Shown piece after piece: positions 4,090 through 62,549 of a stretch of DNA of 64,000 nucleotides. The notes beneath the pieces are model-generated. The model ran no database searches. It worked only from the letters and a program-made list of their open reading frames with translations, and was not told where the DNA came from. Positions within the stretch are counted from its first letter, which is position 1. Each line of letters opens with the position of its first letter. The stretch is from an uncultured Gammaproteobacteria bacterium. GTDB lineage: Bacteria > Patescibacteriota > Microgenomatia > Daviesbacterales > UBA10151. A program made the translations under genes and the position numbers. The stretch is from contig CAZKCV010000001.1 of NCBI GenBank assembly GCA_964551605.1, positions 61,992 to 125,991 of the forward strand, read 5' to 3'.

Positions 4090-4956
4090 CTCATTTAAAT
4101 ACTCGGTAAATTCTTCACCTATCTCCGGATGCTTCTTGGCTAAATCAACCACGGTTTTCATGTACTCCAATTTATTGCCGGTATCATAATATTTGGCATT
4201 TTTCACCTCCACCGTATAAAGAGGAATGCCTTCATCACGCAGTAAGTTTATGGCATCAACCAGCCAGATTTCCCCGCCTTGACCCGGTTGGACCCTTTTG
4301 AGGGCCGAAAAAATTTCCGGAGGCAGGATATAAGCACCATGGGTAGCCAGGTTAGAAGGAGCTTTATCAGGATCCGGTTTTTCTACTATTGACTTAATCT
4401 TGTAGACATTGCCTTCTACCGGCTCAAGGTCTGCTATGCCGTAGCTGCTTAGATCCTCTTTTTTCTCAATTCTAACCCCGGAAATAACCATCCCCCCGTA
4501 TTTTTCATAGACATCAATCATTTGTTTTAACCGGGGCGGCTCTGCCAAAATAAACTCATCCCCCCAAACCACCGCAAAAGGCTCATCTTCAATGACCGAT
4601 TCCCCGGAAAGAACAGGTGTACCGTTGCCATAGGAACCTTTTTGGCGGATGTATATAAAATTAGCCATCTCCGAGATGTTTTTTAACTGCTCCAGGATCT
4701 TCTCTTTATTGCCGTTTACCAGGTTTTGAACCAAATCCTCGCTTGGCATATCAAAATGATCTTCAATGGCCCGCTTGGTGGCACCGGTCACCATAATAAT
4801 ATTGTCTATCCCGGAGCCGACTATTTCTTCCACCACATATTGGATAACAGGTTTATCCACAATGGGCAACATCTCCTTGGGCATGGCCTTGGTTTGGGGG
4901 AGGAAACGGGTTCCAAACCCGGCGGCAGGTATTAAAGCCTTAGTTATTTTTTTCAT
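4066..4956 (-). CDS. galU: UTP--glucose-1-phosphate uridylyltransferase
   Basis: KALIPAAGFGTRFLPQTKAMPKEMLPIVDKPVIQYVVEE is the classic GalU N-terminus. Length 296 aa. Confidence 0.9.
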   Translation of the reverse strand: MKKITKALIPAAGFGTRFLPQTKAMPKEMLPIVDKPVIQYVVEEIVGSGIDNIIMVTGATKRAIEDHFDMPSEDLVQNLVNGNKEKILEQLKNISEMANFIYIRQKGSYGNGTPVLSGESVIEDEPFAVVWGDEFILAEPPRLKQMIDVYEKYGGMVISGVRIEKKEDLSSYGIADLEPVEGNVYKIKSIVEKPDPDKAPSNLATHGAYILPPEIFSALKRVQPGQGGEIWLVDAINLLRDEGIPLYTVEVKNAKYYDTGNKLEYMKTVVDLAKKHPEIGEEFTEYLNELVQNPQG

Positions 4957-6600: not shown

Positions 6601-9165
6601 TTACAATTTCTGTAAAAAGTCAGCAATTTTCTTTCCGTCTCTTTTTAACCATTCGGCATTGGAATAAATCTGTTCCAGGGCTTGAGCGATAGTTCTTTTG
6701 GCTTCCGGAACCGGGTTTTTCTTTACAAAGCCTTCAATATCTTTGGCATCCTCTTTTTTGGTAAACTGCCCGGCTGGACCAAATACTTTAGTAAAATAAT
6801 GTCCTCCGGCATACCTTTCTTTAAGTAATCTCCAGTTCTTTTTTACAAATTCCCAAGCTAAATATCGCCCGACAGGATTGCTCCAAACAGCAGCGATGAT
6901 TTGCAAACTATTTTGGAATCTGACATGCTTGGAAATGGAAAAATCCAGGGTTTTAGAAAGTAACTGTTTACTATTAAACTTACCTAATGCCCTTCCAATT
7001 CTATCTTTTTCCTGTTGATTATCTTTCTCTTTATACATCTTCATTAAAGTCTCAAATTCTGCTTTGCTGCCATTTTCAGCCACTAAATTGTAAACTACAG
7101 CCTTTAGATCAGGGTCAATTTTCTTACCGAATAAACTTTGGGCGGTTTTTATAGTTTCCTGATCTCCGAATCCTCCCAGCATATTCAAGACCATGCCCCG
7201 AAGCAAGGAATCAGTATGTTTCTCGCCTTTTCTAGTTTTCCAGCCCAGCTTTCCGGCTATACCTTTATAAATACTTATGCCATATTTTTTGAAATCTTTG
7301 TAAAAAGACTTTTGTGCCAACAAAGAATCAAGTTGTAACAACTTTCCTGTCAACTCAGCCCAAACCGTGTAATCTTCTTCATCCCTATAACTTTTAGCCA
7401 GCTCCAAAGACAAAGTAGTCGGGCTTTGGCCTGATTCTGCCAAAGAAAAAGAGTCCCTGATAAGGCCTAATCTGTCCGGTGCCGGGAGTTTATTTTTCTT
7501 AACAGCCTGTTCCAGGTTTTTAAGATAGGAATGAGGATAATCAATTCTGACCATGGATACTTCTCCCATGTTAAGTTTTTCTCCTTTGTCAGGGATACTC
7601 ATTTGTTTTTTCTCCATCAGAAACTGTTCGCTACCTATTCTTAGAGGTATATTCCAAATAGTGTTATCTTTCGTTTCTTTTTTAGAAATTGGACTGGAGA
7701 AAAATCTGGATTGAATTAATTCCAGCTTCCCCCTTTCCCCTTTATGCTTTACCCTTATCAACGGATGTCCCGGCTTTGAAGTCCAGTTTTTCATTACTTT
7801 AGTAACCGGCTTACCGCTTTTTTCCTCCAGCGCTTTCCATAAATCTTCTGTTCTGGTATTGGAATAAGCATGTCTTTTCAGATAATGCTGCAGGCCTTTT
7901 TGGAAATCCTTATCCCCTAAATATTGCCAAAGCATCCGCAGCACCGAGGCCCCTTTGGCATAAGAAACACTGTCAAAGATTTCGGAAATTTCCGCCGGGT
8001 GGCCAACTTCCACTTCAATCGGGTGGGTATTTTTTAGAGCATCAAGAGAAAGAGCCTCGGCCAGCTCAGTTCCCACAAACTGAGTCCAAATATCCCATTC
8101 CGGAAAAATATTATTGATAGCCAAATACTCTATAAAACAAGCAAAACCTTCATTCAGCCAAAGGTGAGTCCACCACTCCATGGTAACTAAATTGCCAAAC
8201 CACTGGTGGGCCAGCTCATGGGCAATTACCAATGCCACCCGTTGCTTGTTTTCTGTAGATGAGACTTCTTCATGAACCAAAAGAGCTGACTCCCGGTAAG
8301 TCACTGCTCCCCAGTTTTCCATAGCCCCGGCTGCAAAATCAGGAATAGCAATCATATCTAAAACAGGTAATGGGTAAGGGGTACCAAAATAATTGTCATA
8401 AAAATCTAAACATTTGCCGGCCACCTCCAGGGCAAACCTGGCCTGCTCTTTTTTGCCGGGAGAAGTAAAAACCCTGACTAAAACCCCATTCTTGGTTTTG
8501 CCTTCAATATATTCAAAATCCCCTACAATAAAGGCTAAAAGATAGGTAGACATCTTGGGAGTAGGAACAAATTCCACTATTTTGTAACCGGATTCATGCT
8601 CGGAAATATTAGACGGCACCGTGTTTGAAATAGCTGCCATCCCGGCCGGAACCATCAAAGTCACATCAAAGATGGCTTTTTGGGCCGGTTCATCAAAAGA
8701 AGGAAATGCCCTCCTCGCATCAGTTGACTCAAACTGGGTAGTTGCCAGATGCTTTGATACTCCACTCACTTCATAGCGGGAACGGTAAAAACCCCGCATC
8801 TTATCATTCAAAATTCCCTGAAAGGTAAGTTTTAACTGTCCCTTGCCTTTTTGAATGTTTTTAGGAAAGCTAAAGGTGGCAGTTTCTGCCTTTTTGTCGT
8901 AGCTGATCTTCCCAGCCCAAATTTCTTTGTTTTTATGAACAAACTCAGCACTTTCTATTTCCAGCTCCACAGCATGAAGCGTGATTTGTTTGGAGGGTTT
9001 GTCTAAAGATAAAAAAATTGTCTCTTCTCCGGTAAAAGTAAACTCATTCAAATCCGGCTTGAGCATGATCTTGTAACGCTCCGGCTTAACATGAACCGGC
9101 AGTCTAATACTAATTTTATTTTTCATAATTTGTAACTTATATCTGAATCTCCATCGCTTGTCCAT
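6601..9165 (-). CDS. pepN: aminopeptidase N (M1 family)
   Basis: GAMEN motif (AAGAMENWGAV) and HEXXH-18-E zinc site (HELAHQWFGNLVTMEWWTHLWLNEGFA). An ATG at 9126 is an alternative start. Confidence 0.9.
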   Translation of the reverse strand: MDKRWRFRYKLQIMKNKISIRLPVHVKPERYKIMLKPDLNEFTFTGEETIFLSLDKPSKQITLHAVELEIESAEFVHKNKEIWAGKISYDKKAETATFSFPKNIQKGKGQLKLTFQGILNDKMRGFYRSRYEVSGVSKHLATTQFESTDARRAFPSFDEPAQKAIFDVTLMVPAGMAAISNTVPSNISEHESGYKIVEFVPTPKMSTYLLAFIVGDFEYIEGKTKNGVLVRVFTSPGKKEQARFALEVAGKCLDFYDNYFGTPYPLPVLDMIAIPDFAAGAMENWGAVTYRESALLVHEEVSSTENKQRVALVIAHELAHQWFGNLVTMEWWTHLWLNEGFACFIEYLAINNIFPEWDIWTQFVGTELAEALSLDALKNTHPIEVEVGHPAEISEIFDSVSYAKGASVLRMLWQYLGDKDFQKGLQHYLKRHAYSNTRTEDLWKALEEKSGKPVTKVMKNWTSKPGHPLIRVKHKGERGKLELIQSRFFSSPISKKETKDNTIWNIPLRIGSEQFLMEKKQMSIPDKGEKLNMGEVSMVRIDYPHSYLKNLEQAVKKNKLPAPDRLGLIRDSFSLAESGQSPTTLSLELAKSYRDEEDYTVWAELTGKLLQLDSLLAQKSFYKDFKKYGISIYKGIAGKLGWKTRKGEKHTDSLLRGMVLNMLGGFGDQETIKTAQSLFGKKIDPDLKAVVYNLVAENGSKAEFETLMKMYKEKDNQQEKDRIGRALGKFNSKQLLSKTLDFSISKHVRFQNSLQIIAAVWSNPVGRYLAWEFVKKNWRLLKERYAGGHYFTKVFGPAGQFTKKEDAKDIEGFVKKNPVPEAKRTIAQALEQIYSNAEWLKRDGKKIADFLQKL

Positions 9166-9188
9166 AGTCCACTCTGTAATCCCTCATT

Positions 9189-9217
9189 CATTTGTACCAC
9201 GGTCGGAGGACATTTGT
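9189..9217. promoter_or_regulatory. direct-repeat copy 1 (operator-like) between the PaaX-like gene and the pepN start
   Basis: catttgtaccacggtcggaggacatttgt. A near-identical copy at 9721-9749 sits 8 nt upstream of the PaaX-like start codon. Confidence 0.5.
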
Positions 9218-9218
9218 T

Positions 9219-9713
9219 TCAACCTCTAACATTATCGGATTCAATAACCATCACCCAGTCCTCTATCCCGACTTGCTTAATAAAATCTCTTAGTAATCTC
9301 GTGCAATTGATTTTTGAAGCCCAGATGCTTTGCTGCCACTGTTTAAAGCCTAACTGTTTAAGTTTAAACCTCAAAAGATCTCTAGCTTGTCTTCTCTTCT
9401 CTGGAATATCCCACACCACCAACCTCCATTTCCCATCCCATTTTTCATCTCCACTTCTCATTTTGGCCCACAATGCTCTATCTTTACCTGAATCTGTTAA
9501 TCGCAAAAATAACTCTTCATCGCTGACAAATTCAACAAAACCCTTTTCTCTTAAGCGTTTAACCACTTGAGAAAGAACTGACTTTTTAACAGGTCTTTCC
9601 AATAAAGGATTGTAAATAAAATCTTCAAATACTACATATCCATCGATTGATTTCTCTAAAGCTAGCAGAACTAAATCCGTCAAAAACTTACGCTTGCTGG
9701 GAGGCCTTGGCAT
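9219..9713 (-). CDS. PaaX-like transcriptional regulator (short form: wHTH + PaaX middle-domain motif)
   Basis: WDGKWRLVVWDIPEKRRQARDLLRFKLKQLGFKQWQQSIWAS resembles the PaaX WDGKW...PE...R segment. A paralogue lies at 51999-52499. Confidence 0.6.
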   Translation of the reverse strand: MPRPPSKRKFLTDLVLLALEKSIDGYVVFEDFIYNPLLERPVKKSVLSQVVKRLREKGFVEFVSDEELFLRLTDSGKDRALWAKMRSGDEKWDGKWRLVVWDIPEKRRQARDLLRFKLKQLGFKQWQQSIWASKINCTRLLRDFIKQVGIEDWVMVIESDNVRG

Positions 9714-9720
9714 CTTATCA

Positions 9721-9749
9721 CAAATGTACCACGGTCGGAGGATATTTGT
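9721..9749. promoter_or_regulatory. direct-repeat copy 2 (operator-like) immediately upstream of the PaaX-like start
   Basis: caaatgtaccacggtcggaggatatttgt matches 9189-9217 at about 27 of 29 positions. Confidence 0.5.
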
Positions 9750-9795
9750 ACAGAAACCAATTACTTGTACAATTCTTTCTTCGCCAACTTTAAAT

Positions 9796-9821: not shown

Positions 9822-9905
9822 GCCGGGGTGGCGGAATGGCAGACGCGAAGGTCTCAAAAACCTTTGGTCCTAAAGATCATGAGGGTTCGACTCCCTCCCC
9901 CGGCA
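9822..9905 (+). tRNA. tRNA-Leu(CAA), class II with long variable arm
   Basis: Acceptor GCCGGGG/CCCCGGC. Anticodon stem AAGGT/ACCTT with loop CTCAAAA (anticodon CAA). Long variable arm. T-arm GAGGG-TTCGACT-CCCTC. Discriminator A. No encoded CCA. Confidence 0.85.
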
Positions 9906-9907
9906 CA

Positions 9908-12093: not shown

Positions 12094-12546
12094 ATGCTAA
12101 AATGTTGTCAGATGAAGTTAACCAGGAAATTATCCAAAAAGGTCTTTTTTATTTCCCAGCTTTTAATTCTGATTTTCGGTTTAATATTCATAGGCGGGCT
12201 TTATTATATTCTAAATATCCAGTATGAAGAGCCAAACAGGCCTTTTTTAGCCGGGCCCGTAACTACCCCTCCCAAAAGCCTGCGCTTGGATCTGGACCAG
12301 CCTGAACCGGATATTCTATCTTACAGTCCGTCAATTATTGTTTCCGGCAAAACCGGACCCTCCCGGGAAGTTTTAATTTTTACCGATACCGATGATCTGG
12401 TAATAAAATCCAAAGCCGACGGCTCCTTTTCCACTGTCTTAAACTTGGATGAAGGAGTAAATAAAATTACTGCCGTGGTTTTTGATGCAACCGGCGATTT
12501 CCGGTCAGCCGAAAGGATAGTTTATTATTCTAAGGAGAAAATATGA
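12094..12546 (+). CDS. hypothetical membrane-anchored protein (possible leaderless start at the ATG at 12112)
   Basis: N-terminal TM helix plus a beta-rich extracytoplasmic region. A TGcTAAAAT extended -10 at 12095-12103 sits immediately before the ATG at 12112. Confidence 0.4.
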   Translation: MLKCCQMKLTRKLSKKVFFISQLLILIFGLIFIGGLYYILNIQYEEPNRPFLAGPVTTPPKSLRLDLDQPEPDILSYSPSIIVSGKTGPSREVLIFTDTDDLVIKSKADGSFSTVLNLDEGVNKITAVVFDATGDFRSAERIVYYSKEKI

Positions 12547-13319
12547 AAAGCGTCAAGGGGAAAGCGTCAAGGGGAAAGGTAATAATTTTAACTATACTAT
12601 TATTATTTTTAATTCTTCACCCTTCACCCTTCACCCTTCACCCTATTTTAGCTGCCGAAGGCAGCCCATCAGCCGAGATCAAATCCAAACTCGAGGAGCT
12701 AAAGAGAGATATTGCCTCAAAGGCCGCTAAATTAAAACAAGAGGTAAACCGCAAACTAAAAGATAAAGCTTATGTCGGAACTATTCAGGCCAAGTCAGAT
12801 ACTTCCTTAACCCTGGCAACTGCATCCGGCCCGAAAATGGTCAGTTTTAATGAGGATACAATTTTTGAAAACAAGAAAGGAGTCACCTCCAAAACTCAAA
12901 GATCCATAGTCACTGCCAAATCTCTAACCCAGGATGACTATATTGCCGCTTTAGGAGACAGCGATGAAACAGGGGTGCTGCTGACCAGAAAAATTATATT
13001 ACTGCCAACTCCGGACTCTGAACTCAAAACTTATTTATGGGGCCAGGTAGTCTCGCGTTCAGATAATTTGGTGAATATAAAAGATAAGGGTTCCGAAAAC
13101 ATTGCTGCCAGCTTGCCTGAACCCCCTAAGATCAGCTTAAATGACATTGTGATATTAACCGGCAGTAAAAATGAAGAGGAAATCTTTGAAGCAGAATTTG
13201 TTCATGTCATTCCCCAAAGCGGAATGATTAAGCCAAAAAAAATTGCTACTCCCTCTGCCAGAATCGCCAGTCCCTCTGCTGAGCAAAGCTCGCGGACTTC
13301 GCCCACTAAACCCCGTTAG
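12543..13319 (+). CDS. hypothetical secreted protein with tandem-repeat-encoded N-terminus
   Basis: Signal-peptide-like N-terminus. The DNA carries (aaagcgtcaagggg)x2 at 12547-12574 and (caccctt)x4 at 12618-12645 inside the 5' end of the CDS. Confidence 0.4.
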   Translation: MKSVKGKASRGKVIILTILLLFLILHPSPFTLHPILAAEGSPSAEIKSKLEELKRDIASKAAKLKQEVNRKLKDKAYVGTIQAKSDTSLTLATASGPKMVSFNEDTIFENKKGVTSKTQRSIVTAKSLTQDDYIAALGDSDETGVLLTRKIILLPTPDSELKTYLWGQVVSRSDNLVNIKDKGSENIAASLPEPPKISLNDIVILTGSKNEEEIFEAEFVHVIPQSGMIKPKKIATPSARIASPSAEQSSRTSPTKPR

Positions 13320-18882: not shown

Positions 18883-19818
18883 ATGAATCAAGATTACCTA
18901 AAAGAACAAATTGATCAGATAAACAGACGCATCCAGGACATCAAGTCTTTGCTGGAAGATCCGGAAATGGCTGAACTGGCAGCAGAGGAAATTACCGAGC
19001 TGGAAAGACAAAAAGAGGAATTGCAGTCATCAGTCGTCAGTCATCAGTCGTCAGATGATTCAAACAGTCTGACAGCTGACAGCGAAGCGATACTGAAATC
19101 TGACAGCTGTATATTAGAAATCCGCTCAGCAGCCGGCGGAGATGAAGCCGGGCTTTTTGCCGGAGATTTGCTGCGGATGTATACCAAGTTTGCTCTAAAT
19201 AAAAAGTGGAAGATTGAGGAACTGGACAGATCAGAGGGAAAATTAGGGCAAATTAAGGAAATTGTACTCAAAATAGTCGGAAAAGGCTGTTTTGACTTAT
19301 TAAAATATGAATCCGGTGTACACCGGGTACAAAGGGTACCCACCACTGAATCTTCCGGCCGGATTCACACTTCAACTTCCACCGTAGCAGTACTCCCCCA
19401 TGTCACGGAAGCACAGGTTGCTATTAATCCGGGAGATATAGAATTTGAGGCTTTCAGAAGCGGAGGCGCAGGAGGACAAAATGTTAATAAAGTCTCCACA
19501 GCCGTCAGACTAAAACACATCCCCACAGGAATCACAGTCACTGCCCAAACCGAGCGTTCACAGTTACAAAACAGGGGAAATGCCCTTTCGCTCCTTAGAG
19601 CCAAGCTCTGGGAAATGGAGCAGCAAAAAACTGTCGGAGATATTGAAACACAAAGATCTACTCAAGTGGGAACCGGTGAAAGATCGGAAAAAATCAGGAC
19701 ATATAATTTTCCCCAAAACCGGGTGACTGACCACCGGATCAACAAATCCTGGCATAATTTAGACAGGATCTTAGAAGGAGACCTGGATGATATCATCCAA
19801 ACCCTCTCAGTACATTAA
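18883..19818 (+). CDS. prfA: peptide chain release factor 1
   Basis: GGQ motif ([18 protein letters not shown]). Codon-recognition tripeptide region [17 protein letters not shown] is PxT-type. Contains the 7-bp tandem (cagtcrt)x4 at 19024-19054. Confidence 0.85.
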
Positions 19819-20500
19819 GGGCTGGGTAGAATTTTACAAGTTAAAGTTTAAAGTTACCCCTGATGTTTTAATCCCCCGCCCGGAAACAGAATTATTAGTA
19901 GATGAGGTTTTACGGTACTGTAACCTGTACCCTGAAACCTGTAACCTGATTCTGGACCTTGGTACCGGCTCCGGAAATATTGCCATTTCCATTGCCAAAA
20001 ACTTACGTTTACACCCTTGGGGTGTAAACGTAACAATTGTTGCTACCGATATTTCCCAAAAAGCCCTTAAAGTAGCCAAACAAAATGCGAAGGTGTATGG
20101 AGTCTCCGACCGGATTATCTTTCTCCAGTCTGATCTGCTTAATTATTCAAAAAGTCGACGATCGTCAGATTTTTGTCAACTTGTTCCTGATATTATTGTT
20201 ACGAATCTGCCTTATATCCCGTCCGCCCGGATTCCCTACCTGGACTCTTCAGTCAAGGATTTTGAACCGCATGTCGCGTTGGATGGTGGTGAAAACGGCT
20301 TTAAGCTTTATAGAAAGCTTTTTCAACAGCTTAAATATAGGAACTGGACACCCAAATTACTCATTGGCGAAATCGACTACACTCATGGGGAACTGGCAGC
20401 AAATGAGGCACAAAAGTATTTTCCTGAAGCCTTAATTGAAGTTAAAAAAGACCTGGCTCACTTACAAAGGATCTTAACAATCGAGCATTTCACTGATTAG
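19787..20500 (+). CDS. prmC: release-factor glutamine N5-methyltransferase PrmC/HemK (short N-terminus)
   Basis: NPPY-type motif [12 protein letters not shown]-binding [12 protein letters not shown]. Overlaps the prfA 3' end by 32 bp. Confidence 0.75.
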
Positions 20501-27087: not shown

Positions 27088-27204
27088 ATGTAAAGTATTA
27101 TTCTACTATATACCCATAGTAATATCAACCTAACTGCTCCTTTTTGGGAAATATTTTTTGGGAAATATTATTATACAGCAAATTTCAATACCCTGAAAAC
27201 CCGC

Positions 27205-28400: not shown

Positions 28401-28427
28401 GGAAAGATTATAGATCAATATCTGCTC

Positions 28428-28455
28428 TAATTCCTAATTCCTAATTCCTAATTCC
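28428..28455. repeat. (taattcc)x4 perfect 7-bp tandem repeat upstream of ychF
   Basis: ctaattcctaattcctaattcctaattcc. Confidence 0.7.
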
Positions 28456-51780: not shown

Positions 51781-51961
51781 AGAGATTAGATTAAACCATT
51801 ATACCATGAGTTCAATACACACCCTCAAGCTTACTTAAAGTTTCTCTCCTTTATTGAAAAATTGATTTTCTCAACCATATAGCAAATAATACTATATCTT
51901 ATAGTTATCGTCAAGTACCGATACTCAGGTTTTATTATTCTGATAACACAACTTTACTCGT

Positions 51962-51999
51962 TTAGGCCGATCGGTCTATTTGTCTAAAGTTAGAGATTC
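51962..51999. promoter_or_regulatory. direct-repeat copy (operator-like) between the PaaX-like paralogue and the prs start
   Basis: ttaggccgatcggtctatttgtctaaagttagagattc. Partner at 52525-52562 (ttgggccgatcgtcaagtttgactaaagtcagatattc) contains palindromes GTCAAnnTTGAC and TGACTnnAGTCA. Confidence 0.5.
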
Positions 52000-52499
52000 T
52001 AAGCTACATCAGTACCAACCACTACCCTCACCCAATCAGACAAACCAACCTCTTTAATAAAATTCCGCAAGGGACTTGTTACATCCTTTTTACCGGCCCA
52101 GACACTTTTCTGCCAAGGCTCAAACTCCCACTCCCTAAATTTACTCCGCAAGATTTTTCTTAATTTCCGGTGCTTTTCCGGGATATCAAAAATGACAATC
52201 CTCCACTTCCCATCCCATTTATCCTCTGCTAAAAGCTTTTTTATTATTGCTTCCTCCCTACCTCTATCTGTTAATTTCAACATAATTTTCCCACCGTCTT
52301 TTTTGGTTTCAATAAAACCTTTTTCACGCAAATCCCTAACCGCTTGATAAAGAGCTCCGTAATTTATTTCTCTTGGATCTCGTCCCGGATAAACATACCA
52401 GTGGGAGTTGTAGGCAAAATCAATTAGCAAAACACCACTCTGAATCGATTTCTCCAAACCAAGAAGCAAAAAATAACTTAATGAATTTTTCTTAATCAT
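51999..52499 (-). CDS. PaaX-like transcriptional regulator (paralogue of 9219-9713)
   Basis: WDGKWRIVIFDIPEKHRKLRKILRSKFREWEFEPWQKSVWAG. N-terminal wHTH. Confidence 0.6.
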   Translation of the reverse strand: MIKKNSLSYFLLLGLEKSIQSGVLLIDFAYNSHWYVYPGRDPREINYGALYQAVRDLREKGFIETKKDGGKIMLKLTDRGREEAIIKKLLAEDKWDGKWRIVIFDIPEKHRKLRKILRSKFREWEFEPWQKSVWAGKKDVTSPLRNFIKEVGLSDWVRVVVGTDVA

Positions 52500-52524
52500 G
52501 AGTACATTCTCAAACTATACTTAT

Positions 52525-52562
52525 TTGGGCCGATCGTCAAGTTTGACTAAAGTCAGATATTC
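52525..52562. promoter_or_regulatory. direct-repeat copy (operator-like) in the divergent region between the PaaX-like paralogue and the GNAT gene
   Basis: Matches 51962-51999 at about 31 of 38 positions. Starts 26 nt upstream of the regulator start codon. Confidence 0.5.
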
Positions 52563-56001: not shown

Positions 56002-56009
56002 TTTTTTGA

Positions 56010-56037
56010 TTAGAAATTAAAAATTAGAAATTAGAAA
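56010..56037. repeat. 7-bp tandem array ttagaaa-ttaaaaa-ttagaaa-ttagaaa between the purH stop and the purB start
   Basis: Same array type as 25571-25598. Confidence 0.6.
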
Positions 56038-56040
56038 TTT

Positions 56041-61016: not shown

Positions 61017-62549
61017 TTATTCCCACTCCATAGTGGCTGGGGGTTTGTTGGTAATGTCGTAAACTACCCTGTTAACTTCTTTTACCTCATTTACAATTCT
61101 GGTTGATATTTTTTCCAAAACATCATATGGCAACTTGGCAAAATTGGCAGACATGGCATCAGTTGCTTCAATAGCCCTAATTGCAATGGTCTCTCCATAA
61201 AACCGCTGGTCACCTCTTACTCCGGTGGTTTTAATGCCGGTAAAGACTGCAAAGAATTGCCAGAGTTTTTTATCTAATCCGGCTTTTTCAATTTCTTCCA
61301 GGACAATTTTATCCGCTCTTCTTAAGATGCTTAATTTTTCTTCCGTTACCTCACCTATAATTCTAACTGCAAGGGCCGGGCCGGGAAAAGGCTGCCGGGC
61401 TATAATCTCATCAGGCAATCCTAAGATGCTGCCAATTTTCCTGACTTCATCTTTATAGAAATTTCGCAGTGGTTCAACCAGCACTAAATTCATATCTTCC
61501 GGGAGTCCTCCGACATTATGATGTGATTTTATCTTCTGTGAATGTTTGCTGCCGGCAGACTCTATCACATCCGGATAAATGGTTCCCTGCACCAAAAATT
61601 TGGCATTAATTTTTTTTGCTTCTTTCTCAAACACTTCTATAAAAGTTTTACCGATTACTTTTCTCTTTTCCTCCGGGTCCACAACTCCTTTTAAGGCTTT
61701 CAAAAAATCTTGTCTGGCATCGACAATATCCACATTCATTTTGTATTTGTTTCGGAAAACTTCCCGCAAAGTTTCTGTCTCACCTTCACGCATTAACCCG
61801 GAGTCAACATAAACAGAAGTTAAATTTTTGCCAATAGCTTTGTGTACCAACAATGCGGCCACTGAGGAATCTACTCCGCCGGACAGGGCACATACAGCTT
61901 TTTCATTCCCTACAGAATCCTTGATATCTTTGATAAGATTTTCTACAAACGCGTTGTTAATTTCCTGTTTCGTAATTTCAATACCACAAATCTCTAAAAA
62001 GTTTTTTAAAAGCTGCTCACCAAACTCGGTATGTACCACTTCCGGATGAAATTGAATACCAAAAAGTTTTTTATTTTTATTTTCAATAATGGCATGTGGG
62101 ATTGTTTCAGTTTTACCTAAAGTTTCAAATCCTTCCGGAATTTTTATTACCTGATCTCCATGACTCATCCATGCAGTAAATTTTTCTGGAATATCTTTCA
62201 ACAACTGTACCCTGTACCCTGTACCCTGTACCCTAACTTCTGCTGGTCCGTATTCTCTTTTTCGTCCGGCTACCACTTCTCCTTCTAACAAATGACACAT
62301 CAATTGTTGTCCGTAACAAATTCCTAAAACCGGAATTCCTAACTTAAATATTTCCGGATCTATTGTAGGTGACTCTTTTTCAAAAACAGCCGCCGGCCCG
62401 CCTGATAAAATTATTCCCTGTGGTTTTACTTCGCTAACCTTCTGCATGGCAGATTCCGGAATGGTAATTACCACATCGGATCCCAATTCTCGGAGTCTCC
62501 TGAATATCAGATGTGTTGTTTGTGACCCAAAATCAATTAATAAAATCAT
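61017..62549 (-). CDS. guaA: GMP synthase (glutamine-hydrolysing)
   Basis: GATase domain GICYGQQLM. PP-loop SGGVDSSV. Contains (gtaccct)x4 at 62207-62234 encoding VRVQGTGYRVQ. Convergent with purA, 2-bp gap. Confidence 0.9.
   Translation of the reverse strand: MILLIDFGSQTTHLIFRRLRELGSDVVITIPESAMQKVSEVKPQGIILSGGPAAVFEKESPTIDPEIFKLGIPVLGICYGQQLMCHLLEGEVVAGRKREYGPAEVRVQGTGYRVQLLKDIPEKFTAWMSHGDQVIKIPEGFETLGKTETIPHAIIENKNKKLFGIQFHPEVVHTEFGEQLLKNFLEICGIEITKQEINNAFVENLIKDIKDSVGNEKAVCALSGGVDSSVAALLVHKAIGKNLTSVYVDSGLMREGETETLREVFRNKYKMNVDIVDARQDFLKALKGVVDPEEKRKVIGKTFIEVFEKEAKKINAKFLVQGTIYPDVIESAGSKHSQKIKSHHNVGGLPEDMNLVLVEPLRNFYKDEVRKIGSILGLPDEIIARQPFPGPALAVRIIGEVTEEKLSILRRADKIVLEEIEKAGLDKKLWQFFAVFTGIKTTGVRGDQRFYGETIAIRAIEATDAMSANFAKLPYDVLEKISTRIVNEVKEVNRVVYDITNKPPATMEWE

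What the first reader, a model, noticed from the sequence alone, without database searches (positions are those of the whole stretch)
9183..9760. PaaX-like regulator bracketed by 29-bp direct repeats that overlap its own start and the pepN promoter, next to tRNA-Leu
The repeat cATTTGTACCACGGTCGGAGGAcATTTGT at 9189-9217 ends 1 nt before the regulator stop and lies 24-52 bp upstream of the pepN start. Its near-identical copy at 9721-9749 lies 8 nt upstream of the regulator ATG. The paralogue at 51999-52499 shows the same arrangement with a different repeat sequence; both repeat types share a CGGTC...ATTTGT core. The simplest reading is an autoregulated repressor that also controls the downstream gene (pepN here, prs at the second locus) through duplicated operators. 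An alternative is a very small DR-flanked cassette inserted beside a tRNA gene.
Basis: partly seen in the sequence, partly recalled or inferred. Interest (0 to 1): 0.6.

Follow-up and report, generated by a model that had tools for sequence, protein, structure and literature searches.

The report
Small regulator gene bracketed by operators
A small PaaX-type DNA-binding protein gene in a Candidatus Daviesbacteria (CPR) genome lies between two copies of its own roughly 30-bp palindromic binding site, and most relatives of this very large, uncharacterised protein family share that layout, which points to a compact self-regulating switch rather than a recently inserted mobile cassette.

Summary
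Gene A (9219-9713, minus strand) is flanked by a direct repeat, 24/25 identical, with none expected by chance. Paralogue B (51999-52499) is flanked by a different ~50-nt repeat.

Both proteins consist of a winged helix plus the Cas2-like PaaX middle domain. They lack the PaaX C-terminal domain.

Of 80 homologous loci from CPR genomes, 51 have flanking repeats scoring above the 95% null. One copy typically ends ~2 nt before the ATG and the other starts ~1 nt after the stop. Each copy is an imperfect palindrome around a CGRYCG core.

The upstream copy usually embeds TTGACA-N16-19-TAnnAT ending 6-8 nt before the ATG. That geometry suggests a near-leaderless promoter inside an operator. The window's own locus A matches only 8/12.

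The downstream copy looks less like a promoter. In 13 of 47 loci it faces a convergent gene, so it cannot generally be the neighbour's operator.

Five of six relatives sampled through DnaB have tRNA-Leu directly next to pepN, with no regulator and no repeat copy. A DnaB tree suggests the module is old and was lost repeatedly.

Single copies of the same palindrome also occur as in-frame insertions inside housekeeping genes (tatD). This is unexplained.

Verdict: autoregulated mini-PaaX repressor with paired operators; a new variant of a known kind.

The parts
9219..9713 (-). Gene A: 164-aa mini-PaaX protein. It has an N-terminal winged helix and a Cas2-like PaaX_M domain, and lacks PaaX_C.
   Evidence: ORF. 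Pfam PF20803 at E 2.5e-21 with weak MarR/HTH hits. The AlphaFold2 model shows wHTH plus beta-alpha-beta-beta-alpha-beta. Best Foldseek hit is PaaX 8a39.
9721..9749 (-). Upstream copy of the A-type palindromic site, with core CGGTCG at 9732-9737. In gene sense it reads TGTACA-N18-TGG-TACATT-N9-ATG. Proposed operator overlapping the gene's own promoter.
   Evidence: The promoter match is only 8/12 in this window, and the consensus scan found none. The inference rests on the family-wide pattern.
9189..9217 (-). Downstream copy of the A-type site, with core CGGTCG at 9200-9205. It starts 1 nt after the stop codon and lies about 63-91 nt upstream of the pepN start at 9126. Proposed auxiliary operator.
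9822..9906 (+). tRNA-Leu(CAA), transcribed divergently from gene A. It is a conserved neighbour and is not part of the repeat.
6601..9126 (-). pepN (M1 aminopeptidase), the co-oriented downstream neighbour. Its start is revised to 9126.
51999..52499 (-). Gene B: 166-aa paralogue, 44% identical to A, with the same two-domain architecture.
52513..52562 (-). Upstream copy of the B-type repeat, with core CGATCG at 52531-52536. It ends 13 nt before the ATG.
51950..51999 (-). Downstream copy of the B-type repeat, with core CGATCG at 51968-51973. It begins at the stop codon. Outer arms AACTTTA/TAAAGTT make it a palindrome of about 42 bp. prs has its own sigma-70-like promoter further downstream (51914 to 51886).
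20143..20180 (.). Solo palindrome of the same general design (GTTGACAAAAATCTGACGATCGTCGACTTTTTGAATAA on the minus strand), inside the prmC/hemK ORF 19787-20500. Possibly a site for a paralogue encoded outside the window. Its membership in this system is uncertain.
   Evidence: and analogy with the tatD solo site.

Best explanation
Genes A and B encode minimal PaaX-type transcription factors: a winged helix joined to a Cas2-like domain. This middle region is the dimerisation motif in solved PaaX-like structures (PMC9493321).

Proposed mechanism. Each protein binds, probably as a dimer, its own long dyad-symmetric site of about 30-36 bp. The site has CA...TG outer anchors at about +/-13-15 bp, variable inner arms that probably set specificity, and an invariant CGRYCG centre.

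One copy of the site sits on the gene's own promoter. The core lies in the -35/-10 spacer, and the -10 element ends 6-8 nt before the ATG, so the mRNA would be leaderless or nearly so. Binding there would shut off the gene's own transcription.

The second copy lies right after the stop codon. It would act as an auxiliary operator. Bridging the two sites about 530 bp apart, or simply blocking transcription at the 3' site, would tighten autorepression. It would also gate transcription leaving or entering the gene. Where the next gene is co-oriented (pepN, prs, dprA elsewhere), this would couple that gene to the regulator.

Shown here: the repeats, their dyad symmetry, their fixed positions, their specificity to each paralogue, the protein fold, and the family-wide generality.

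Inferred: DNA binding to these sites, repression rather than activation, looping or roadblock, and leaderless transcription.
For: 1. Protein identity. PF20803 PaaX_M at E 2.5e-21 and 1.5e-17, plus weak wHTH hits. The model is wHTH plus a ferredoxin-like domain. The best structural match is E. coli PaaX 8a39 at E 6.7e-5, followed by PaaX-like 3l09 and 3kfw; Cas2 chains match the C-terminal domain.

2. PaaX precedent. PaaX binds widely spaced inverted repeats, TGATTC-N27-GAATCA, and represses its own Px promoter (PMC9493321).

3. Generality. Of 80 loci, 51 have a flanking direct repeat above the 95% null and 30 are above the 99% null. The repeat ends a median of 2 nt before the ATG and starts a median of 1 nt after the stop.

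4. Site anatomy. Forty-nine loci have CGRYCG at the dyad centre of both copies. Dyad symmetry exceeds the null at positions 5-16 and reaches 92-96% at positions 13-14. Identity between the two copies of one locus far exceeds identity between loci across +/-16 bp, so each paralogue has its own site.

5. Promoter overlap. In 38 of 46 upstream copies the match to TTGACA/TATAAT is at least 9/12, and 31 have an exact TTGACA. The -10 ends 6 or 8 nt before the ATG in 28 of those 38.

6. Use at another gene. The same type of site, with TTGACA and TATAAT, directly precedes dprA in L017. In L010 and L016 it doubles as the regulator's downstream copy.

7. Low copy number. There are only three core-pattern matches in a 1.02-Mb contig: two flanking the gene and one in tatD. 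That fits a transcription-factor regulon rather than a proliferating repeat.

8. Not RNA hairpins here. The window's A-type copies do not fold better than shuffles as RNA (z = 1.0 and 0.12), and no Rfam family matches.
Against: - No binding or expression data exist; every functional step is inferred.
- In the window itself the locus A promoter match is weak (8/12), and the consensus scan finds none.
- Locus B has a different geometry, with the core about 35 nt from the ATG.
- Spacers of 18-19 bp are common. These would be poor sigma-70 promoters in E. coli, and they leave room for MerR-like activation instead of repression.
- The centre-to-centre distances (516-561 bp) show no helical phasing that I could see.
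- The auxiliary-operator role is not demonstrated.
- Some homologues lack a detectable downstream copy (L006, L018, L020, L032).
- In-frame copies of the site inside tatD and other ORFs are not predicted by a plain repressor model.
- The two copies at one locus share even the degenerate R/Y core bases (44/49, against 52% expected), whereas the distant tatD copy in the JACPDA genome does not. This suggests local gene conversion, so part of the similarity between copies may not reflect selection.
Confidence: 0.6

Rival explanations
1. Mobile or selfish module. The repeat-gene-repeat unit is a tiny mobile element whose ends are the palindromes. The wHTH/Cas2-like protein recognises, and perhaps cuts or joins, those ends. 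Solo palindromes inside ORFs would be footprints or miniature non-autonomous derivatives, analogous to REP/RAYT, PATEs of IS200/IS605, or Rickettsia palindromic elements.
For: - Module boundaries coincide with the palindromes, which abut the start and stop codons.
- The whole module is present or absent at the same tRNA-Leu/pepN site among related genomes.
- There are several paralogues per small genome, each with its own palindrome.
- A full A-type palindrome occurs as an in-frame insertion of about 33 nt in tatD, present in some orthologues and absent in others. Others lie in Mur-ligase-like, signal-peptidase-like and prmC ORFs.
- The Cas2-like domain keeps the conserved Asp (D102) that aligns with the Cas2 motif.
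Against: - Empty sites carry no repeat copy and no recognisable target.
- Gene A keeps the same position next to tRNA-Leu down to 61-62% protein identity. Its divergence tracks that of DnaB, and the DnaB tree favours old presence with several losses.
- Copy number is very low: three core-pattern matches per 1.02-Mb contig.
- There is no transposase, integrase or HUH motif, and no hit to phage or transposase families for A.
- PaaX relatives are regulators, and no catalytic activity is known for PaaX_M.
Confidence: 0.12
2. Passive duplicate. The downstream copy is a historical by-product, for example of tandem duplication of a promoter-gene unit or of how paralogues arise. Gene conversion keeps it similar to the upstream operator, and it has no function of its own. 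Only the upstream copy would be an operator.
For: - Both copies at a locus share even the degenerate core bases: 44/49 against 52% expected. A distant copy in the same genome differs (L146 versus L004). This pattern looks like distance-dependent gene conversion.
- Several loci have lost the downstream copy (L006, L018, L020, L032).
- Downstream copies are not better promoters when a co-oriented gene follows.
Against: - The arrangement persists across very deep divergence: Daviesbacteria, Curtissbacteria, Nealsonbacteria, Tagabacteria, Giovannonibacteria and a contig labelled Nanoarchaeota. These genomes are under strong deletion pressure.
- The downstream copy's position relative to the stop codon is tightly conserved (5 or 14-16 nt to the dyad centre in 34 of 49 loci).
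- Dyad symmetry is maintained in the downstream copy. In some clades its outer arms are more symmetric than those of the upstream copy (L053-L057).
Confidence: 0.12
3. RNA-level element. The palindromes act as hairpins in the transcript, as a terminator, a stabiliser, or a processing site for a Cas2/VapD-like ribonuclease domain.
For: - Cas2 and VapD relatives have reported RNase activity, and weak Cas2 profile hits were found.
- Some family members' sites fold well as RNA (L014 z = -2.9, L053 z = -3.7).
- The downstream copy lies at the 3' end of the gene.
Against: - The window's own sites do not fold better than shuffled sequence (z = 1.0, 0.12, -0.48, 0.04).
- No T-run follows the sites. 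Only one terminator-like call touches a repeat, in locus B on the antisense (+) strand.
- If the promoter reading is right, the upstream copy is not transcribed at all.
- The conserved centre plus outer anchors, with variable arms, fits a protein-DNA dyad. The protein has a wHTH domain.
Confidence: 0.06
4. Recombination sites. Each palindrome (two arms of about 12-15 bp around a 6-bp centre, like lox, FRT or dif) is a target for a host tyrosine recombinase. The direct repeats would allow excision or inversion control of the gene.
For: - The architecture and length resemble recombinase core sites.
- The centres of the two copies at a locus are usually identical (44/49), as strand exchange would require.
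- One contig (L118) shows an apparently truncated signal-peptidase ORF at a palindrome.
Against: - No recombinase gene is linked to the loci in the window.
- Excision between direct repeats would leave one copy, but the five empty sites examined have none.
- Each paralogue has different arms, which would need many recombinase specificities.
- The co-variation is with the adjacent wHTH protein.
Confidence: 0.04

Closest known systems
PaaX, the phenylacetyl-CoA-responsive repressor of E. coli and Pseudomonas (PDB 8a39; PaaX-like 3l09, 3kfw)
   Same: - N-terminal winged helix followed by the Cas2-like middle domain.
- Recognition of a long site made of widely spaced inverted repeats, and repression of its own promoter (PMC9493321).
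   Different: - It lacks the C-terminal helical domain thought to bind the CoA effector: 164-166 aa against about 316 aa.
- It scores far below the PaaX equivalog cut-off (29.8 against 264.55 bits).
- No paa genes are nearby. There are many paralogues per genome.
- Two site copies bracket the gene. The core is CGRYCG instead of TGATTC arms.
- It is found in CPR bacteria.
Repressors with auxiliary operators and DNA looping (LacI O1/O2, GalR OE/OI, DeoR). This comparison draws on established knowledge.
   Same: A primary operator lies at the promoter, and a second cognate operator lies a few hundred bp downstream. This would allow cooperative binding.
   Different: - Here the second site sits exactly at the 3' end of the regulator's own gene, not inside a target gene.
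- The looped segment would be the regulator gene itself.
- The protein family is unrelated, and looping has not been tested.
MarR/PadR-type small winged-helix autoregulators
   Same: - A small dimeric wHTH protein with a palindromic operator overlapping its own promoter.
- Weak profile hits to MarR, PadR and HTH_27.
   Different: - Dimerisation would go through a ferredoxin-like Cas2-type domain instead of helical bundles.
- The site is much longer (about 30-36 bp) and has three conserved blocks.
REP/RAYT and IS200/IS605-derived palindrome systems
   Same: - A small gene is flanked by copies of an imperfect palindrome in the same orientation.
- Different paralogues are paired with different palindromes.
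- Extra solo copies occur elsewhere in the genome.
   Different: - There is no HUH/Y1 transposase.
- Solo copies are very few rather than tens to hundreds.
- Some solo copies are in frame inside ORFs.
- The flanking copies coincide with promoter geometry.
Cas2 (CRISPR adaptation protein)
   Same: - The C-terminal domain has the Cas2 fold and the 'vvyDIp...Q.Svw' motif.
- Profile scores sit at the edge of the Cas2 cut-off (24.4 against 24.5 bits).
   Different: - No cas1 and no CRISPR array are present in the window.
- The domain is fused to a wHTH.
- The two 'repeats' are 530 bp apart and enclose the gene itself.

Membership tests
PaaX family (Pfam PaaX / PaaX_M / PaaX_C; NCBIfam TIGR02277) | Central Cas2-like PaaX_M domain | tested here: met
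   PF20803 at E 2.5e-21 (A) and 1.5e-17 (B), both above the gathering score. Foldseek top hit is PaaX 8a39.
PaaX family (Pfam PaaX / PaaX_M / PaaX_C; NCBIfam TIGR02277) | N-terminal winged-helix DNA-binding domain | tested here: met
   The model has H-strand-H-H plus a beta hairpin at residues 7-72. Sub-threshold MarR_2, PadR and HTH_27 hits were found. The TIGR02277 alignment starts at residue 47 (A) or 45 (B) and runs into the Cas2-like domain. The Pfam PaaX N-terminal model itself did not hit.
PaaX family (Pfam PaaX / PaaX_M / PaaX_C; NCBIfam TIGR02277) | C-terminal helical (effector-binding) domain PaaX_C | tested here: not met
   The proteins end at residues 164 and 166, directly after the Cas2-like domain. 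There is no PaaX_C hit. Most of the best family representatives listed are 160-200 aa.
PaaX family (Pfam PaaX / PaaX_M / PaaX_C; NCBIfam TIGR02277) | Reaches the equivalog cut-off of TIGR02277 (true PaaX) | tested here: not met
   29.8 and 28.6 bits against a cut-off of 264.55.
PaaX family (Pfam PaaX / PaaX_M / PaaX_C; NCBIfam TIGR02277) | Linked to phenylacetate (paa) catabolic genes and responds to phenylacetyl-CoA | tested here: not met
   Neighbours are pepN, tRNA-Leu and dnaB (A) and prs, a GNAT gene and purC (B). Ligand response cannot be tested here.
PaaX family (Pfam PaaX / PaaX_M / PaaX_C; NCBIfam TIGR02277) | Binds a long operator of widely spaced inverted repeats overlapping its own promoter | tested here: inconclusive
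   In silico, sites with dyad symmetry out to +/-16 bp overlap promoter-like hexamers. Binding itself was not tested.
CRISPR Cas2 | Stand-alone protein of about 90-110 aa encoded next to cas1 and a CRISPR array | tested here: not met
   The domain is fused to a wHTH. Flanking genes are pepN and dnaB. No arrays are present in the window. The TIGR01573 score is 24.4 against a cut-off of 24.5.
REP/RAYT or IS200/IS605-type palindrome elements | HUH/Y1 transposase encoded between the palindromes | tested here: not met
   Only PaaX_M and wHTH profiles hit. The Cas2-like domain of protein A contains no histidine, so it has no His-hydrophobic-His motif (sequence).
REP/RAYT or IS200/IS605-type palindrome elements | Many dispersed copies of the palindrome per genome | tested here: not met
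   The A-type core pattern occurs 3 times in a 1.02-Mb contig and 2 times in the 64-kb window. Only a handful of solo sites were found in 770 kb of related loci.
REP/RAYT or IS200/IS605-type palindrome elements | Gene flanked by copies of its cognate imperfect palindrome | tested here: met
Integron gene cassette | attC recombination site downstream of a promoterless ORF, within an array next to an intI integrase | tested here: not met
   The units are single and are not in arrays. No integrase is adjacent. The upstream copy carries promoter-like hexamers. No formal attC model search was run.

The most novel reading that the evidence does not exclude
The palindrome-gene-palindrome units are a previously unrecognised kind of minimal mobile or selfish element of CPR bacteria. 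A winged-helix/Cas2-fold protein recognises, and helps move or copy, its own roughly 30-bp palindrome. This would account for modules that come and go as a whole at a given site. It would also account for single palindromes inserted in frame into housekeeping genes (tatD, a Mur ligase, prmC). The palindrome would double as a portable promoter-operator.
Probability: 0.12. Interest if true: 0.8.

Novelty: new variant of a known kind. Interest (0 to 1): 0.5.

Why it matters
CPR (Patescibacteria) genomes are tiny, and almost nothing is known about how they regulate genes. This two-domain mini-PaaX family is large: 3,018 clusters at 50% identity score E<=1e-10. It occurs in several copies per genome.

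If each member is a self-contained switch, then regulator-operator pairs could be read straight from sequence. The switch would consist of the regulator gene, its promoter-operator, and a second operator at its 3' end, with a private recognition sequence. That would give a first map of transcription-factor specificities, of promoters (apparently TTGACA/TATAAT with leaderless starts), and of small regulons in an uncultivated phylum. It would also provide a set of orthogonal repressor/operator parts.

The in-frame operator copies inside essential genes raise a further open question: how do such sites spread?

Tried and rejected
- Chance repeat. Rejected: no matches in 100 shuffles, and the pattern is family-wide against a mismatched-flank null.
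- Repeat derived from the tRNA (an att-like site). Rejected: the tRNA is at 9822-9906 and the repeat lies 73 nt upstream of its 5' end.
- Known RNA family. No Rfam match other than the tRNA.
- Terminator or RNA hairpin. The window's sites fold no better than shuffles.
- CRISPR-like array. No arrays are present in the window.
- Defence or phage protein. There are only weak Cas2 and wHTH hits in PADLOC and PHROGs.
- Downstream copy as the promoter of a co-oriented neighbour. Promoter-likeness of downstream copies is no higher for co-oriented neighbours than for convergent ones.
- Single repeat copy at empty sites. None was found in L149-L153.
- Helical phasing of the two sites. No pattern was seen in the 516-561 bp distances.
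- Literature. Full-text searches for PaaX with 'Cas2-like', with CPR/Patescibacteria terms, and with operator or structure terms found nothing on this family in CPR.
- prmC insertion.
- L118 and L128. Both contigs are too short to interpret.
Full report
**1. What is in the window**

The window comes from a Candidatus Daviesbacteria genome (Microgenomates, CPR). Its GC content is 41%. The closest homologues of the flagged gene, where named, are from Daviesbacteria or Patescibacteria MAGs.

The flagged ORF is at 9219-9713 on the minus strand and encodes 164 aa.

The repeat finder and the DNA search confirm a direct repeat. TGTACCACGGTCGGAGGACATTTGT lies at 9193-9217 and TGTACCACGGTCGGAGGATATTTGT at 9725-9749. 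They are 24/25 identical and 532 nt apart. These are the only two matches in the window allowing up to 3 mismatches, and none occurred in 100 shuffles.

In gene orientation, one copy ends 8-11 nt before the ATG. The other begins 1 nt after the stop codon.

tRNA-Leu(CAA) is at 9822-9906 and is transcribed divergently. dnaB lies beyond it, and pepN follows the gene.

Alignment with orthologues places the pepN start at 9126 rather than 9165. The downstream copy is therefore about 63-91 nt upstream of pepN.

The paralogue is at 51999-52499 (166 aa, 44% identical). It is flanked in the same way by a different repeat of about 50 nt, roughly 80% identical, at 52513-52562 and 51950-51999. No other paralogue lies in the window.

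**2. The protein**

- Both proteins match Pfam PaaX_M ('PaaX protein central Cas2-like domain') at E 2.5e-21 and 1.5e-17.
- Their N-terminal halves give only sub-threshold winged-helix hits (MarR_2, PadR, HTH_27).
- There is no PaaX_C hit.
- They fall far below the PaaX equivalog cut-off and sit at or below the Cas2 cut-off.
- An AlphaFold2 model (mean pLDDT 71) shows a winged helix, a linker helix, and a beta-alpha-beta-beta-alpha-beta domain.
- Its best PDB match is E. coli PaaX 8a39 (E 6.7e-5), followed by PaaX-like 3l09 and 3kfw. Cas2 chains match the C-terminal domain.

PaaX is a repressor that binds TGATTC-N27-GAATCA and represses its own promoter. Its middle region is described as the dimerisation motif (PMC9493321).

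The family is large. A profile search finds 3,018 clusters at 50% identity with E<=1e-10, and most of the best hits are 160-200 aa.

**3. The repeats are a family rule and are palindromic sites**

I fetched 80 homologous loci from species-representative genomes. For each I compared the 150 nt upstream of the start with the 150 nt downstream of the stop.

The null was mismatched flank pairs (mean score 17.6; 95th percentile 24; 99th percentile 37).
- 51 of 80 loci exceed the 95% level.
- 30 of 80 exceed the 99% level.
- Inverted matches are far weaker, with only 4 above the 99% level.
- The repeat ends a median of 2 nt before the ATG and starts a median of 1 nt after the stop.

The arrangement occurs in Daviesbacteria, Curtissbacteria, Nealsonbacteria, Tagabacteria and Giovannonibacteria. 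It also occurs on a short contig labelled Nanoarchaeota.

When aligned on their dyad centres, 49 loci have CGRYCG at the centre of both copies.
- Dyad symmetry exceeds a permutation null from positions 5 to 16 and reaches 92-96% at positions 13-14.
- The two copies of one locus resemble each other far more than copies from different loci across +/-16 bp.
- Paralogues in one genome differ mainly in the inner arms, for example TTCA|CGATCG|TGAA, GTGA|CGATCG|TCAC and TTCT|CGACCG|AGAA.

This is what cognate operators of diverged dimeric regulators should look like. The span of about 30 bp matches what is known for PaaX.

**4. The upstream copy looks like a promoter**

- In 38 of 46 upstream copies the best TTGACA/TATAAT pair matches at least 9/12.
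- TTGACA is exact in 31.
- Spacers are 16, 18 or 19 bp.
- The -10 element ends 6 or 8 nt before the ATG in 28 of those 38 copies.
- The dyad centre lies 17-19 nt from the ATG in 38 of 49 loci.

This implies leaderless or nearly leaderless mRNAs, with the CGRYCG core in the promoter spacer. A bound protein would then occlude RNA polymerase. A MerR-like activating role at the long spacers cannot be excluded.

For the window's locus A the match is weaker: TGTACA-N18-TGG-TACATT, 8/12. The generic scan reports no promoter there. For this locus the promoter reading rests on homology of position.

Locus B has a different geometry. Its core is about 35 nt from the ATG. prs has a good promoter of its own downstream of the repeat.

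**5. What the downstream copy is not**

Among loci with a clear repeat, the next gene is co-oriented in 34 and convergent in 13. The convergent neighbours are real genes, such as rplA, pyrE, murA and an RseP-like protease by my reading of the translations.

Downstream copies are less promoter-like than upstream ones. Mean -35 match is 3.9-4.5 against 5.3-5.4. They are no better when the neighbour is co-oriented.

The downstream copy is therefore not, in general, the operator or promoter of the next gene. It behaves as part of the regulator unit.

It can still be used by a neighbour. In L010 and L016 it precedes dprA. In L017 a site of the same type, with perfect TTGACA and TATAAT, is fused in leaderless geometry to dprA with no regulator gene in between.

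**6. Cassette or resident?**

Loci chosen by homology to the regulator are biased towards having it. I therefore sampled the neighbourhood through DnaB orthologues and looked up six contigs.

In five of them (L149-L153; DnaB 85-90% identical to the window's), tRNA-Leu(CAA) is followed directly by pepN. The gaps are about 44-121 nt. There is no regulator and no copy of the palindrome. The sixth contig has a different neighbourhood.

The whole module of about 600 bp is an indel, and empty sites hold zero copies.

Evidence that the module is old at this site:
- The regulator sits next to tRNA-Leu in genomes whose orthologue is only 61-62% identical (L014, L018).
- The surrounding region is collinear at about 70-77% nucleotide identity in L002-L006 and L008.
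- Divergence of the regulator tracks that of DnaB.
- In a neighbour-joining DnaB tree (no support values), module-bearing genomes occupy basal as well as derived positions. Module-less genomes are scattered among them.

The simplest reading is an old resident module that was lost several times. Repeated site-specific gain is not excluded.

**7. Unexplained: operator copies inside genes**

I scanned metagenomes for the A-type core TCCTCCGRYCGTGGTAYA. It found flanking pairs around orthologues. It also found solo, full-length palindromes with no regulator nearby.

One lies inside tatD on the same 1.02-Mb contig that carries an orthologue of gene A, about 373 kb away.
- tatD orthologues either carry this in-frame segment of about 33 nt (...SQMSSDRGT[NF]VQ...), carry a decayed version, or lack it.
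- In one genome the tatD copy has drifted by three bases, while the two gene-flanking copies stay matched (L146 against L004).

Together with the 44/49 identity of the degenerate core bases within loci, this suggests local gene conversion between flanking copies.

Similar solo sites lie in a Mur-ligase-like ORF (L106) and at an apparently truncated signal-peptidase ORF (L118). In this window, one lies inside prmC at 20143-20180.

These sites may be intragenic operators, internal promoters, or traces of some way in which the palindrome spreads. Copy number is low (three per 1.02 Mb), unlike REP-type repeats.

**8. Alternatives weighed**

- RNA hairpin or terminator. The window's sites fold no better than shuffles, and there is no Rfam match.
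- CRISPR relationship. There is no array and no cas1.
- Recombinase sites. No recombinase is linked, and empty sites lack a residual copy.
- Mobile module. This remains possible (about 0.12). It is weakened by the synteny and by the low copy number.
- Passive duplicate kept by gene conversion. Also possible (about 0.12). It is weakened by the deep conservation of the position and symmetry of the downstream copy.

**9. Verdict**

The best explanation (confidence about 0.6) is a minimal PaaX-type autoregulator with two cognate operators bracketing its own gene. The upstream operator coincides with a near-leaderless promoter.

It works like PaaX and like other looped or auxiliary-operator repressors. 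It is not a true PaaX: there is no C-terminal domain, no paa context, and the score is far below the equivalog cut-off.

I rate it a new variant of a known kind, of moderate interest. The open question is how operator copies come to sit in frame inside housekeeping genes.

Noticed in passing
window 20143-20180 (inside the prmC/hemK ORF 19787-20500, + strand): A solo palindrome of the family's design, CAAAAAGTCGA-CGATCG-TCAGATTTTTG, lies within a coding region and encodes ...[11 protein letters not shown]... No cognate regulator gene is in the window. I could not test whether it is an insertion relative to prmC orthologues.
   Followed up: partly
L126 6959-6990 (tatD ORF 6722-7618). Orthologues P0121-P0140; loci L145-L148.: A full A-type palindrome sits as an in-frame segment of about 33 nt in tatD, about 373 kb from the regulator on the same 1.02-Mb contig. 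It is present, decayed or absent in different Daviesbacteria tatD orthologues.
   Followed up: yes
L118 about 755-790; L106 about 1865-1900; L128 about 165-205: Further solo A-type palindromes. One is at the point where a signal-peptidase-like ORF stops resembling its family (L118). One is inside a Mur-ligase-like ORF (L106). One is near a contig end (L128). The contigs are too short to interpret.
   Followed up: partly
TatD orthologues P0143, P0147, P0155, P0157, P0181, P0199, P0201, P0227: Many other short lineage-specific insertions interrupt these otherwise conserved proteins, for example ...LRLRSGHS......AQGKL/P......RQAGRGAF... This suggests that small insertions into coding regions are common in these genomes.
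   Followed up: no
window 12615-12644, 28427-28455, 56009-56039, 62205-62234 (7-nt units); 12547-12578, 19024-19054, 19918-19949, 27141-27169 (14-nt units): These are short tandem repeats, most of them perfect, with units of 7 or 14 nt and 2-4 copies. 12547-12578 and 12615-12644 fall within the ORF at 12543-13319, 19024-19054 within the ORF at 18883-19818, and 19918-19949 within prmC. The others were not placed.
   Followed up: no
window 9126 versus 9165: The longest pepN ORF starts at 9165. Alignment with orthologues supports the ATG at 9126 (MKNKISIRLP...).
   Followed up: yes
L017 about 4540-4800 (minus strand); L016 4575-4660: Between the regulator and dprA, L017 appears to carry a small HTH-like ORF (about 57 aa by manual translation) on the opposite strand. 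L016 carries a run of AAGATGAAAATA-like tandem repeats.
   Followed up: no
L075 (JBBSXW010000046.1, 1.4 kb, labelled Nanoarchaeota): A homologue of the regulator with a 37-nt flanking repeat and a different core (GCTATAGC) sits on a contig binned as a DPANN archaeon. This is either cross-domain spread or misbinning.
   Followed up: no
L002 3040-4000: In this orthologous locus an extra opposite-strand ORF of 237 aa lies between tRNA-Leu and the regulator. The tRNA adjacency is therefore not strict.
   Followed up: no
window 51886-51914 (minus strand): prs has its own good sigma-70-like promoter (TTGACG-17-TATTAT, 10/12) about 40 nt downstream of the B-type downstream repeat. That repeat therefore lies upstream of the prs core promoter and does not overlap it.
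   Followed up: partly
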